In this document: positions 40,212 through 41,527 of the stretch, piece after piece
How positions within the stretch are numbered: position 1 is the first letter of the stretch
Layout: every line of letters begins with the position of its first letter
Origin: a virus
Taxonomy: Duplodnaviria > Heunggongvirae > Uroviricota > Caudoviricetes
Virus record (IMG/VR): IMGVR_UViG_2939127364_000001
DNA length: 64,000 bases
Strand: one strand, 5' to 3'
Program-made: the position numbers and the translations under genes
The notes under the pieces: model-generated
What the model was told of the DNA's origin: nothing
The model's input: only the letters and a program-made list of their open reading frames with translations
Databases searched by the model: none

Positions 40212-41527
40212 GCGAGCTGAGTTATCTGGAAAAACTGCTGGATGGGGCTGAGGTTGAGTGGGTAGCATTAAATAAATTAGCAACTTTTTTAAAAGGGAAG
40301 TCTTTACCTAAAGAAAAAATAACTCCAGATGGCAATAGATATTGTATTCATTACGGTGAGCTTTTCACTCATTATGGTCCCATAATTGACAAAGTATGCT
40401 CAAAAACAAACCAAGCAATCAATGAGTCAATTCTATCTGAAAAAAATGATGTTCTAATGCCAACGTCAGACGTTACACCAAGAGGTTTGGCTACAGCTAG
40501 TTGCATTCAAGAAAGTGGCGTTATTTTAGGCGGCGATATTTTGATTATTAGATGCTCTGGTGTTGATGGTAGATATCTAAGTAATTTCATAATAAATAAC
40601 AAAAAAAAGATATTGCAAATGGTTAAAGGTTCTACTGTTTATCATTTGTATGCTAAAGATATAGGTAAATTACTTATCCCCATCCCTTGCCCCAACAACC
40701 CGGAAAAGTCGCTGGCTATCCAGTCTGAAATCGTCAGGATTCTGGATAAATTTACTGCACTTACCGCTGAGCTTACCGCTGAGCTTAGCATGCGTAAAAA
40801 ACAATACAACTACTATCGCGACCAGTTGTTGAGTTTTGATGATGAGCAGGAAAAACCTATTTATCTGGAAAAATTGCTGGATGGGGTTGAGGTTGAGTGG
40901 TTGCCATTGGGGAAACTAGGTGAATTAGTTCGTGGAAATGGATTGCCTAAGTCTGATTTTACCGAATCTGGGGTTCCTGCCATACACTATGGTCAGATAT
41001 ATACTTTTTACGGATTATCTACTGAAACAACAAAGTCATTTGTTTCCCATGAAACGGCGAAGAAGCTTAAAAAGGTTAACTCTGGTGATGTTGTTATTAC
41101 TAACACAAGCGAAAATTTTACTGATGTTGGTAAGGCGCTTGTTTATCTAGGTAAAGAGCAAGCTGTTACTGGTGGCCATGCAACTATTTTTAAGCCAAAT
41201 AGCACTATTATTGGGAAATACTTTGCCTATTTCACGCAAACGGATTCTTTTGCAAATGGGAAAAGGAAATACTCCAAGGGAACTAAAGTAATTGATGTGT
41301 CTGCATCGGATATGGCGAAAATTATTATCCCTATCCCCTGTCCGGAAAATCCGGAAAAATCCCTTGCCATTCAGTCTGAAATCGTTCGGATTCTGGATAA
41401 ATTCGACACCCTGACTAACTCCATCACCGAAGGTCTCCCGCGTGAAATCGAGTTGCGCCAGAAACAATACGAATACTACCGTGATTTACTGTTCAGTTTC
41501 CCAAAACCTGAAACTGTCAGTAATTAA
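40208..41527 (+). CDS. hsdS: Type I R-M specificity subunit with two target-recognition domains and central TAEL-TAEL repeat
   Basis: Duplicated conserved regions ([12 protein letters not shown] / [12 protein letters not shown]; [25 protein letters not shown] twice); central [11 protein letters not shown]; start overlaps hsdM stop. Confidence 0.85.
40760..40783 (+). repeat. Two tandem 12-bp repeats (CTTACCGCTGAG) encoding TAEL-TAEL in the HsdS central spacer
   Basis: Codons read L-T-A-E-L-T-A-E-L in the hsdS frame. Confidence 0.8.

What the first reader, a model, noticed from the sequence alone, without database searches (positions are those of the whole stretch)
40675..41405. HsdS carries the TAEL-TAEL length-variation repeat and roughly 80-bp internal direct repeats that could reassort target-recognition domains
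Two 12-bp CTTACCGCTGAG units (40760-40783) encode TAEL-TAEL; in EcoR124I versus EcoR124II, two versus three TAEL copies change the spacer of the recognition sequence (GAA-N6-RTCG versus GAA-N7-RTCG), and unequal crossing-over switches specificity. The conserved regions after each recognition domain (about 40675-40750 and 41325-41405) are near-identical at the DNA level, as are the N-terminal repeats (about 40227-40262 and 40865-40900). These are substrates for deletion or domain shuffling.
Basis: established knowledge. Interest (0 to 1): 0.5.

Follow-up and report, generated by a model that had tools for sequence, protein, structure and literature searches.

The report
EcoR124-type hsdS with transplanted recognition cassette
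This is the DNA-specificity gene of an ordinary, intact EcoR124-family (type IC) restriction system on an E. coli phage-plasmid; its short TAEL repeat and its internal repeats are real, known kinds of specificity-changing features, but in this gene they are weak recombination substrates and show no variation.

Summary
The 12-bp CTTACCGCTGAG x2 repeat sits exactly at 40760-40783 and encodes the TAEL-TAEL spacer ruler of a type IC HsdS (40208-41527). HsdM and HsdR flank it and match EcoR124 over their full lengths.

The internal direct repeats exist but are not near-identical. The longest perfect match is 16 nt.

They exist because TRD2 is a position-1-type cassette. About 665 bp (40838-41502) are about 99.8% identical to slot 2 of a P1-like phage-plasmid allele. 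The resulting x-TRD1-y-x-TRD2-y layout is the one described as domain movement in Helicobacter.

Relatives show the predicted events:
- Alleles identical except for TAEL copy number exist (1/2, 2/3).
- 226-aa single-TRD HsdS genes arose by crossovers at three or more positions between the two TRD copies of a related allele.

For this allele, none of seven predicted variants is present among 15 billion proteins.

Verdict: a new allele of a known kind, of modest interest.

The parts
38649..40211 (+). hsdM, the type IC methyltransferase subunit (520-aa ORF). It overlaps the hsdS start by 4 nt.
   Evidence: Pfam N6_Mtase E=1.8e-121 and HsdM_N. 1149 bits over residues 1-519 to the EcoR124 M protein, PDB 7bst_D.
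40208..41527 (+). hsdS, the specificity subunit (439 aa). It is identical to WP_122057112.1 / AYN92443.1 on E. coli plasmid CP033097.1.
   Evidence: Pfam Methylase_S with two stretches. The conserved regions are nearly identical to EcoR124 HsdS (7bst_A, E=7.5e-64), while the TRDs are unrelated. Exact look-up and encoding contig.
40222..40262 (+). Repeat x, copy 1. This is the N-terminal conserved region encoding [13 protein letters not shown].
   Evidence: 38/41 nt identical to 40861-40901. It forms short helix 3-11 in the AlphaFold model.
40262..40672 (+). TRD-A, the target recognition domain in slot 1 (aa 19-155).
   Evidence: It is 99-100% identical (all but one at 100%) in the position-1 TRDs of 33 alleles, is never seen in slot 2, and is paired with many different TRD2s.
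40667..40752 (+). Repeat y, copy 1. This is the conserved region after TRD1, encoding [29 protein letters not shown].
   Evidence: 69/86 nt (80%) identical to 41318-41403, and 26/30 aa identical.
40760..40787 (+). TAEL ruler: CTTACCGCTGAG x 2.3, with the two full units at 40760-40783. It lies inside helix D1 (aa 165-209, nt 40700-40834).
   Evidence: Tandem Repeats Finder, period 12, 100% match. Helix position from the model. Function of the repeat from PMC3874165.
40838..41502 (+). Imported cassette: linker DDEQEKP, x copy 2, TRD-B, y copy 2 and the start of D2. It matches slot 2 of the B/B hsdS of a P1-like phage-plasmid (L002) apart from one mismatch.
   Evidence: The window equals backbone relative L004 up to 40837. 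From 40838 to about 41502 it equals L002, with one mismatch seen in the stretches printed base by base (40838-40910 and 41300-41502); the stretch between them is 99-100% identical per 100-nt window.
40861..40901 (+). Repeat x, copy 2, encoding [13 protein letters not shown]. Classical type IC HsdS genes do not have it.
   Evidence: EcoR124I has SFKEGEVEW at this point. It forms short helix 218-224 in the model, mirroring the N-terminal helix.
40901..41323 (+). TRD-B, the target recognition domain in slot 2 (aa 232-372).
   Evidence: In the 70%-identity clustering, the same TRD family lies in slot 1 in 83 relatives and in slot 2 in only 9. Its best match is a position-1 TRD at 99.2%.
41318..41403 (+). 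Repeat y, copy 2, encoding [29 protein letters not shown].
   Evidence: EcoR124I has FKIPVPNINEQQRIVEILDKF at this point.
41404..41527 (+). C-terminal conserved region (helix D2). From DKF to SF it is 35 aa, the length D1 would have with three TAEL units. D1 here is 31 aa.
   Evidence: Counted from the translation. Helices 382-404 and 410-429 in the model. Identical to the EcoR124 C-terminus.
41649..44765 (+). hsdR, the type IC motor-nuclease subunit (1038 aa).
   Evidence: Pfam EcoR124_C, T1R_D3-like, SWI2_SNF2 and HSDR_N. 2281 bits over residues 1-1038 to EcoR124 HsdR, PDB 2w00.

Best explanation
The region is the specificity gene of a complete hsdM-hsdS-hsdR operon of the EcoR124 (type IC) family. 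It is carried on an SSU5/pHCM2-like E. coli phage-plasmid.

The 12-bp x2 repeat is the family's inherited TAEL ruler in coiled-coil helix D1. By analogy with EcoR124I, two copies should set the two methylated adenines 7 nt apart (inferred). Gaining or losing one 12-bp unit, by slipped mispairing or unequal crossing-over, should lengthen or shorten the non-specific spacer by 1 bp. This is shown experimentally for EcoR124I/II and for EcoR124I/EcoDXXI hybrids, and is inferred here.

The internal direct repeats x and y exist because TRD2 of this allele is a position-1-type cassette (x-TRD-B-y) that recombination placed into slot 2. The gene therefore has the layout x-TRD1-y-D1-x-TRD2-y-D2.

The allele is a mosaic. 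The backbone phage-plasmid contributed hsdM, TRD-A and D1. The roughly 665-bp cassette matches slot 2 of a P1-like phage-plasmid allele with only one mismatch in the stretches read base by base.

The recombination that actually reshuffles specificity is mainly between different alleles, through the long and highly similar conserved flanks. Recombination within a gene does happen when the repeats are long. In the related B/B allele it produced half-size HsdS genes. In this gene the repeats are 41 nt at 93% and 86 nt at 80%, with at most 16 nt of perfect identity, so deletion should be rare.
For: Family and integrity:
- All three ORFs are full length with the expected Pfam domains.
- HsdR and HsdM match EcoR124 end to end.
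- The HsdS conserved regions match EcoR124 HsdS.

Replicon:
- Flanking DNA is 97-99% identical to roughly 100-120-kb E. coli plasmids and to phages Cyrano, CMS-2020a and PhiR41_1.
- The record is CP033097.1.

TAEL ruler:
- Repeat confirmed in the sequence. Function taken from PMC3874165.
- Pairs that differ only in copy number: P0001 (x2) and L002 (x3), 0 substitutions; P0021 (x1) and P0006 (x2), 0 substitutions; P0005 (three units, the middle one TAAL) and P0019 (x2), 0 substitutions; L012 (x3) and L022 (x2), 2 substitutions.
- IMG/VR census using exact flanks: x1 = 0, x2 = 24, x3 = 8, x4 = 0.

Cassette origin:
- Mosaic and breakpoints.
- In the 70%-identity clustering, the TRD-B family lies in slot 1 in 83 relatives and in slot 2 in 9.
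- Among 16 full-length HsdS with the duplicated x/y flanks, TRD2 is at least 90% identical to a position-1 TRD in 10. Among 86 with the classical layout, none reaches 90% and one reaches 70%.
- Independent second case: L013 carries in slot 2 the TRD that L018 carries in slot 1, at 99% identity.
- The AlphaFold model (pLDDT 83) shows two equivalent halves, each a short helix, a TRD and a long helix.

Deletion in relatives:
- 226-aa HsdS proteins are 5'-copy-1 / 3'-copy-2 chimeras of the B/B gene, with crossovers at three or more positions.
- They sit in intact operons on P1-like elements.
Against: - The recognition sequence is unknown. No TRD of known specificity matched, so the 7-nt adenine spacing is an analogy only.
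- The homologue sample is biased. It consists of the best 120 hits to this protein plus 32 viral loci.
- For 6 of the 16 duplicated-flank alleles, no position-1 counterpart of TRD2 was found in this sample.
- The true parental alleles are not in hand. The 3' breakpoint region is mosaic.
- The extra 14-aa linker between D1 and TRD2 could change the geometry in ways not seen in EcoR124I.
Confidence: 0.85

Rival explanations
1. The TAEL tract and the x/y repeats of this gene are active switching devices. A growing population would then regularly contain 2/3-repeat variants and TRD-deleted or reshuffled variants, as in a contingency locus.
For: Copy-number variants that are otherwise identical exist in relatives. 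One-TRD derivatives exist in relatives. EcoR124I/II switching is documented.
Against: The tract has only 2.3 copies of a 12-mer. All 33 TRD-A alleles have two copies. None of seven predicted variants of this allele is in a collection of about 15 billion proteins. The x and y repeats share at most 16 nt of perfect identity, which is below the roughly 25 nt usually needed for efficient RecA recombination in E. coli (established knowledge). The deletions seen in relatives used 537-nt repeats at 95% identity (639 nt at 90% in a wider alignment), and their crossovers lie inside the TRD copies, not in x or y.
Confidence: 0.12
2. The internal repeats are only the ancient half-gene duplication shared by all HsdS genes, preserved by structural constraint (HsdM contacts and the coiled coil). 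No recent cassette movement is involved.
For: All HsdS genes have a two-fold pseudo-symmetric layout. Twelve of the 15 differing codons in y are synonymous, which points to purifying selection on the peptide.
Against: The archetype EcoR124I-type gene lacks x copy 2 and has a very different y copy 2; its internal repeat scores are 22 and 15, against 63 and 32 here. TRD-B in slot 2 is 99% identical to slot-1 copies elsewhere. The cassette matches another replicon's allele with one mismatch in the stretches read base by base.
Confidence: 0.08
3. The direction of events is reversed. Free-standing half-size hsdS genes (x-TRD-y-D2) are the ancestral units, and the duplicated-flank full-length genes arose by fusion or tandem duplication of such halves rather than by movement of a TRD from slot 1 to slot 2.
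For: Half-size HsdS genes exist in intact operons. Half-S systems are thought to be ancestral to type I S subunits (PMC3874165). The origin of the DDEQEKP linker is unexplained.
Against: The observed half genes are chimeras whose 5' part matches copy 1 and whose 3' part matches copy 2 of the diverged B/B gene. They have several different crossover points, which is the signature of deletion from B/B. This does not exclude a half-gene origin for the first duplicated-flank allele.
Confidence: 0.2

Closest known systems
EcoR124I / EcoR124II (type IC R-M; Price et al. 1989, reviewed in Loenen et al. 2014, PMC3874165)
   Same: Same gene order. HsdM and HsdR match over their full lengths. The N-terminal, central and C-terminal conserved regions of HsdS are essentially the same, and the 12-bp TAEL unit has the same DNA sequence. 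The two-copy state is that of EcoR124I.
   Different: Both TRDs are unrelated to those of EcoR124I, so the half-sites are not GAA / RTCG. TRD2 is flanked by a second copy of the N-terminal region and by a TRD1-type y region, which adds 14 aa between D1 and TRD2. There is Ser instead of Asn after the repeat. The operon is on a phage-plasmid, not on the conjugative plasmid R124.
Domain movement (DoMo) in type I S genes of Helicobacter pylori, Streptococcus pyogenes and Mycoplasma agalactiae (Furuta et al. 2011, PMC3077401)
   Same: The layout is x-TRD1-y-x-TRD2-y. The same TRD is found in slot 1 and slot 2 of different alleles. One-TRD derivatives exist. A variable 12-bp central repeat is present (searches compared).
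   Different: Here it occurs in the enterobacterial type IC family on phage-plasmids and chromosomal islands. Only a minority of alleles (16 of 102 sampled) have the duplicated flanks. No three-TRD form was seen. The observed deletions crossed over inside duplicated TRDs, not in x or y.
Homodimeric half-S type IC enzymes: EcoR124I(delta50), EcoDXXI deltaC / deltaN, and natural NgoAV (PMC3874165)
   Same: The 226-aa HsdS proteins of relatives have one TRD plus one coiled-coil helix, as in these active truncations. They would be expected to dimerise and recognise a palindromic bipartite site.
   Different: These belong to relatives, not to the window gene. They arose by in-frame recombination between duplicated TRDs, not by transposon insertion, engineered deletion or frameshift. 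Their activity was not tested.
Hybrid type IC S subunits EcoDR2/3 and EcoRD2/3 (Gubler et al. 1992, as reviewed in PMC3874165)
   Same: New specificity arises by recombination in the central conserved region, joining the TRD1 of one allele to the TRD2 of another, with TAEL number setting the spacer. The window allele is a natural mosaic of this kind, with its 5' crossover at about 40826-40837.
   Different: It is natural rather than constructed, and the incoming TRD2 is a slot-1-type module.

Membership tests
Type IC restriction-modification (EcoR124 family) | HsdM and HsdR closely related to, and interchangeable with, those of EcoR124I | tested here: met
   Tested by sequence only. HsdR gives 2281 bits over 1-1038 to 2w00. 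HsdM gives 1149 bits over 1-519 to 7bst_D. Subunit complementation cannot be tested with these tools.
Type IC restriction-modification (EcoR124 family) | Gene order hsdM-hsdS-hsdR, with hsdM and hsdS overlapping and hsdR set apart | tested here: met
   ORFs at 38649-40211, 40208-41527 and 41649-44765, all on the + strand, with a 121-nt gap before hsdR. That this order defines type IC is from my own knowledge.
Type IC restriction-modification (EcoR124 family) | HsdS with type IC conserved regions, including TAEL repeats in the central helix | tested here: met
   The alignment to 7bst_A shows essentially identical central and C-terminal conserved regions and TAELTAEL.
Type IC restriction-modification (EcoR124 family) | Methylated adenines 7 nt apart (two TAEL) or 8 nt apart (three TAEL) | not testable with these tools
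   This needs a methylome or biochemistry. The rule comes from Table 1 of PMC3874165.
EcoR124I/II-type spacer switching by TAEL copy number | Perfect tandem copies of the 12-bp unit in helix D1 | tested here: met
   2.3 copies at 100% match at 40760-40787. The unit matches the EcoR124II repeat sequence contained in the published primers.
EcoR124I/II-type spacer switching by TAEL copy number | Otherwise identical alleles that differ only in copy number | tested here: inconclusive
   Met for relatives: three pairs with 0 substitutions and one pair with 2. Not found for this allele: the x1, x3 and x4 versions are absent from about 15 billion proteins. The allele itself was found on a single contig (UniRef lists 9 entries for it), so its absence says little.
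EcoR124I/II-type spacer switching by TAEL copy number | Copy-number change alters the spacer of the recognition sequence | not testable with these tools
   Shown for EcoR124I/II and for the hybrids (PMC3874165). Inferred here.
Domain movement (DoMo) architecture of S genes | Repeats flanking both TRDs (x-TRD1-y-x-TRD2-y) | tested here: met
   x: 38/41 nt. y: 69/86 nt. Scores are 63 and 32 against a shuffle maximum of 17.
Domain movement (DoMo) architecture of S genes | The same TRD sequence occupies slot 1 in some alleles and slot 2 in others | tested here: met
   In the 70%-identity clustering, the TRD-B family is in slot 1 in 83 relatives and in slot 2 in 9, and at 95-100% in both slots of P0001 and L002. 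L013 versus L018, and L003 versus L012, are further cases.
Domain movement (DoMo) architecture of S genes | One-TRD or three-TRD derivatives produced by recombination at the repeats | tested here: inconclusive
   One-TRD forms exist in relatives, but their crossovers lie inside the duplicated TRD-B copies rather than in x or y. No protein longer than 447 aa is among the best 120 hits. The predicted one-TRD forms of this gene are absent.
Simple-sequence-repeat phase-variable hsdS (phasevarion type, PMC7383803) | A long hypermutable repeat tract that gives high-frequency ON/OFF or length switching | tested here: not met
   There are only 2.3 copies of a 12-nt unit. Changes stay in frame and cannot switch the gene OFF.

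The most novel reading that the evidence does not exclude
Enterobacterial type IC hsdS genes on phage-plasmids may form a shared cassette pool. In this pool a minority 'duplicated-flank' layout would let any slot-1 TRD be installed in slot 2. Cassettes would pass between unrelated phage-plasmid families (P1-like and SSU5-like) and chromosomal islands. Symmetric B/B alleles would repeatedly collapse into active half-size HsdS enzymes with palindromic targets. This would be domain movement in E. coli, which I did not find reported in the papers I searched. It would also provide a natural series (A/B, B/B x2, B/B x3, half-B) for testing how helix length sets target spacing.
Probability: 0.45. Interest if true: 0.45.

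Novelty: new member of a known kind. Interest (0 to 1): 0.3.

Why it matters
The finding as written restates textbook type IC biology for one more allele, so it matters little on its own.

The added value is comparative. This allele and its relatives form a natural series that differs by a single defined step each time. The steps are TAEL x1, x2 and x3, the same TRD in slot 1, slot 2 or both, and full-size versus half-size S subunits. Methylome data on these strains could test two open points directly:
- how changing the length of one coiled-coil helix, but not its partner, is accommodated (a question left open in Loenen et al. 2014);
- whether a TRD reads the same half-site in either slot.

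It also documents exchange of specificity cassettes between two phage-plasmid families. That bears on how these elements vary their restriction barriers.

Tried and rejected
- BLAST of hsdS against 5,426 complete E. coli genomes and 72,556 plasmids. No record covers at least 80% of the gene, so this TRD pair is absent from both collections.
- Exact look-up of seven predicted derivatives of this allele. None was found.
- Assigning a recognition sequence. The only solved type IC HsdS (EcoR124) shares no TRD with this gene, and EcoKI matches only weakly (E=1.6e-4). A literature search for the accessions WP_122057112 and AYN92443 turned up no paper citing either among those listed. REBASE is not available here. 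No motif can be given.
- Looking for three-TRD products. No protein longer than 447 aa is among the best 120 homologues.
- Rfam and tRNA scans of the whole window. No hits.
- Promoter and terminator scan of 38200-41800. Counts are no higher than in shuffles. One weak promoter-like site lies at 41555-41584, before hsdR.
- Reading the TAEL tract as a phase-variation (ON/OFF) repeat. Rejected, because changes of 12 nt stay in frame.
- Reading 'near-identical' repeats as evidence of recent intragenic duplication in this gene. Rejected. The two y copies are only 80% identical because they come from different parental alleles.
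Full report
**1. What is at the coordinates**

The finding lies inside a 439-aa ORF, 40208-41527 (+). A 520-aa ORF (38649-40211) precedes it and overlaps it by 4 nt. A 1038-aa ORF (41649-44765) follows it.

Pfam identifies the three as HsdM (N6_Mtase, HsdM_N), HsdS (Methylase_S, two stretches) and HsdR (HSDR_N, SWI2_SNF2, T1R_D3-like, EcoR124_C).

Against solved structures, HsdR matches EcoR124 HsdR over all 1038 residues (2281 bits). HsdM matches the EcoR124 M protein over 519 residues (1149 bits).

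HsdS matches EcoR124 HsdS (7bst_A, E=7.5e-64) only in its conserved regions. Those regions are essentially identical, while both target recognition domains (TRDs) are unrelated.

This is therefore an intact EcoR124-family (type IC) operon with a different specificity.

**2. Where the window comes from**

The DNA upstream carries metG, an apbC/ParA-like gene, an S24 peptidase gene and the gene for DNA polymerase III theta. It is 97-99% identical to roughly 100-120-kb non-mobilizable E. coli plasmids and to phages Cyrano, CMS-2020a and PhiR41_1. That places the window on an SSU5/pHCM2-like phage-plasmid.

The HsdS protein is exactly WP_122057112.1 / AYN92443.1 on plasmid CP033097.1 (113,610 bp).

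**3. Checking the observation**

Tandem Repeats Finder reports CTTACCGCTGAG, period 12, 2.3 copies, 100% match, at 40760-40787. The repeat is in frame and reads TAEL-TAEL. Its DNA matches the EcoR124II repeat sequence contained in the published mutagenesis primers. The only difference is AGC (Ser) here for AAC (Asn) just downstream (PMC10644984).

The internal direct repeats are real. Local alignment between the two gene halves scores 63 and 32. Shuffled sequence reaches at most 17, and an EcoR124I-type gene scores 22 and 15.

They are not near-identical DNA:

| Repeat | Coordinates | Identity | Longest exact run |
|---|---|---|---|
| y | 40675-40750 vs 41326-41401 | 62/76 (82%) | 14 nt |
| x | 40227-40262 vs 40866-40901 | 33/36 (92%) | 13 nt |

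The longest exact word shared by the two gene halves is 16 nt. The peptides are 26/30 and 12/14 identical, and 12 of the 15 differing codons in y are synonymous.

**4. Why the repeats are there**

In EcoR124I the segment before TRD2 is SFKEGEVEW, and the segment after it is FKIPVPNINEQQRIVEILDKF. Here the segment before TRD2 is [23 protein letters not shown], a second copy of the N-terminal conserved region. The segment after TRD2 is [28 protein letters not shown], a second copy of the region that normally follows TRD1.

Comparison with 120 database homologues and several fetched loci explains this:
- TRD1 of the window (TRD-A) occurs, at 99-100% identity, only in slot 1, in 33 alleles (the window included) with many different partners.
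- TRD2 of the window (TRD-B) belongs to a TRD family (70%-identity clustering) that occupies slot 1 in 83 relatives and slot 2 in only 9.

The duplicated-flank layout tracks this pattern. Among 16 full-length proteins with duplicated flanks, TRD2 is at least 90% identical to a position-1 TRD in 10. Among 86 with the classical layout, none reaches 90% and one reaches 70%.

Independent examples exist. L013 pairs the EcoR124I TRD1 with a slot-2 TRD that is 99% identical to the slot-1 TRD of L018. The slot-2 TRD of L003 is 98% identical to the slot-1 TRD of L012.

The duplicated flanks are thus the footprint of a slot-1-type cassette installed in slot 2. This is the x-TRD1-y-x-TRD2-y organisation that Furuta et al. 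(2011, PMC3077401) described as domain movement in H. pylori, S. pyogenes and M. agalactiae.

An AlphaFold model (mean pLDDT 83.4) shows two equivalent halves:
- first half: short helix 3-11, TRD1, long helix D1 (165-209);
- second half: short helix 218-224, TRD2, helices 382-404 and 410-429.

**5. The allele is a mosaic**

At the DNA level the window is 100% identical to pRHBSTW-00180_3 (L004), a relative of the same plasmid family, from hsdM through TRD-A and the TAEL tract up to 40837.

From 40838 to about 41502 it matches slot 2 of the B/B hsdS of a P1-like IncY phage-plasmid (L002, CP057381.1). Only one mismatch appears in the stretches printed base by base, and the rest is 99-100% identical per 100-nt window.

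From about 42850, in hsdR, it is again 100% identical to L004.

The 5' crossover lies in the last roughly 12 nt of the shared D1 coding sequence (40826-40837). The 3' end of the exchange is less clean.

The same operon type also sits in chromosomal islands next to Ag43 and GTPase genes (L001, L003).

Cassette exchange between alleles, through conserved flanks, is therefore shown for this gene.

**6. Do the predicted events occur?**

TAEL copy number. Pairs of alleles that are otherwise identical differ only by one unit:

| Pair | TAEL copies | Substitutions |
|---|---|---|
| P0001 / L002 | x2 / x3 | 0 |
| P0021 / P0006 | x1 / x2 | 0 |
| P0005 / P0019 | x3 (middle unit TAAL) / x2 | 0 |
| L012 / L022 | x3 / x2 | 2 |

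A census of IMG/VR contigs with exact flanks gives x1 = 0, x2 = 24, x3 = 8 and x4 = 0.

Deletion. The 90%-identity cluster that contains the window protein is represented by a 226-aa HsdS and holds several other 226-aa members. These proteins have the form x-TRD-B-y-D2. They are chimeras of copy 1 (5' part) and copy 2 (3' part) of the B/B gene. Their crossovers fall at three or more different positions. In the B/B gene the two copies are 537 nt at 95% identity, with a longest perfect run of 92 nt; a wider local alignment gives 639 nt at 90%.

The half genes lie in operons with full-length hsdM (apart from copies cut by a contig end or an insertion) and hsdR, next to phd/doc on P1-like elements. 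They were found on 11 contigs from separate samples.

This allele. None of seven predicted derivatives exists among about 15 billion proteins. The seven were TAEL x1, x3 and x4, two 222-aa TRD-A halves and two 226-aa TRD-B halves. All 33 TRD-A alleles have two TAEL copies. The allele itself is rare, so its absence is weak evidence.

**7. Mechanism, and what is shown versus inferred**

Shown:
- membership of the family;
- the repeat anatomy;
- the mosaic origin of the allele;
- TRD-B in both slots among relatives;
- natural TAEL indels and natural TRD deletions in relatives.

From the literature (PMC3874165):
- two versus three TAEL units change GAA N6 RTCG to GAA N7 RTCG, by unequal crossing-over;
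- the EcoR124I/EcoDXXI hybrids obey the same rule;
- type IC half-S subunits dimerise and recognise palindromes.

Inferred:
- this enzyme methylates adenines 7 nt apart;
- a third TAEL unit would add 1 bp to its spacer;
- deletion between x or y in this gene is rare, because perfect identity is at most 16 nt over a distance of about 650 bp.

D1 here is 31 aa from DKF to SF, whereas D2 is 35 aa, the length D1 would have with three TAEL units. This agrees with the published remark that three copies fit the alignment best.

**8. Novelty and verdict**

The TAEL ruler, TRD swapping, domain movement and half-S enzymes are all known. New here are a previously uncharacterised allele, and evidence that the domain-movement layout and recurrent half-S formation occur in E. 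coli type IC systems on phage-plasmids. I did not find that reported in the papers I searched.

The finding is a correct but ordinary annotation with an overstated claim about DNA identity. Interest is 0.3.

Noticed in passing
Relatives: L005:6001-6681, L006:3838-4518, L007-L010; proteins P0122, P0123, P0125, P0126, P0135: Natural half-size (226-aa, single-TRD) HsdS genes sit in type IC operons with full-length hsdR, and full-length hsdM wherever the contig allows, next to phd/doc on P1-like phage-plasmids. They are chimeras of the two TRD-B copies of a B/B allele, with at least three different crossover points, which indicates recurrent in-frame deletions. Their activity and palindromic specificity were not tested.
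   Followed up: yes
window 40838-41502 versus L002:5539-6882 (CP057381.1): The specificity cassette here matches one in a P1-like IncY phage-plasmid with a single mismatch in the stretches read base by base, although the window backbone is SSU5-like. The same operon type also occurs in chromosomal islands beside Ag43 and GTPase genes (L001, L003). Unrelated mobile elements therefore share type IC hsdS cassettes.
   Followed up: partly
window 41535-41625 (hsdS-hsdR intergenic region): Read by eye, there are two GC-rich hairpins: ACCGGG-(11 nt)-CCCGGT and GCCGGAAG-(13 nt)-CTTCCGGC. Both loops contain CCTTAAC. The region is largely conserved in L001-L004. A weak promoter-like site lies at 41555-41584. 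They may be regulatory or terminator elements ahead of the separately expressed hsdR. They were not folded or tested.
   Followed up: no
window 41341-41358: A 9-bp tandem repeat, TCCGGAAAA x2, lies inside y copy 2 and encodes part of PENPEK. It is probably incidental.
   Followed up: no
window 40788-40790: The codon right after the TAEL tract is AGC (Ser), not the AAC (Asn) of EcoR124. In the loci compared base by base, the TRD-A alleles L001 and L004 also have AGC, while L002 and L003 have AAC. All 33 TRD-A alleles in the sample have exactly two TAEL copies.
   Followed up: partly
PDB 7bst_A: The deposited chain is named 'EcoR124II specificity protein' but shows TAELTAEL, that is, two copies. 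By the literature this is the EcoR124I state. It is a naming quirk to keep in mind when using that entry as a reference.
   Followed up: no
window 28000-38600: A phage-plasmid accessory block lies upstream of the R-M operon. It carries a full-length methionyl-tRNA synthetase gene (metG), an apbC/ParA-like ATPase gene, a HumD/UmuD-like S24 peptidase gene and a DNA polymerase III theta homologue (annotations of matching records).
   Followed up: no
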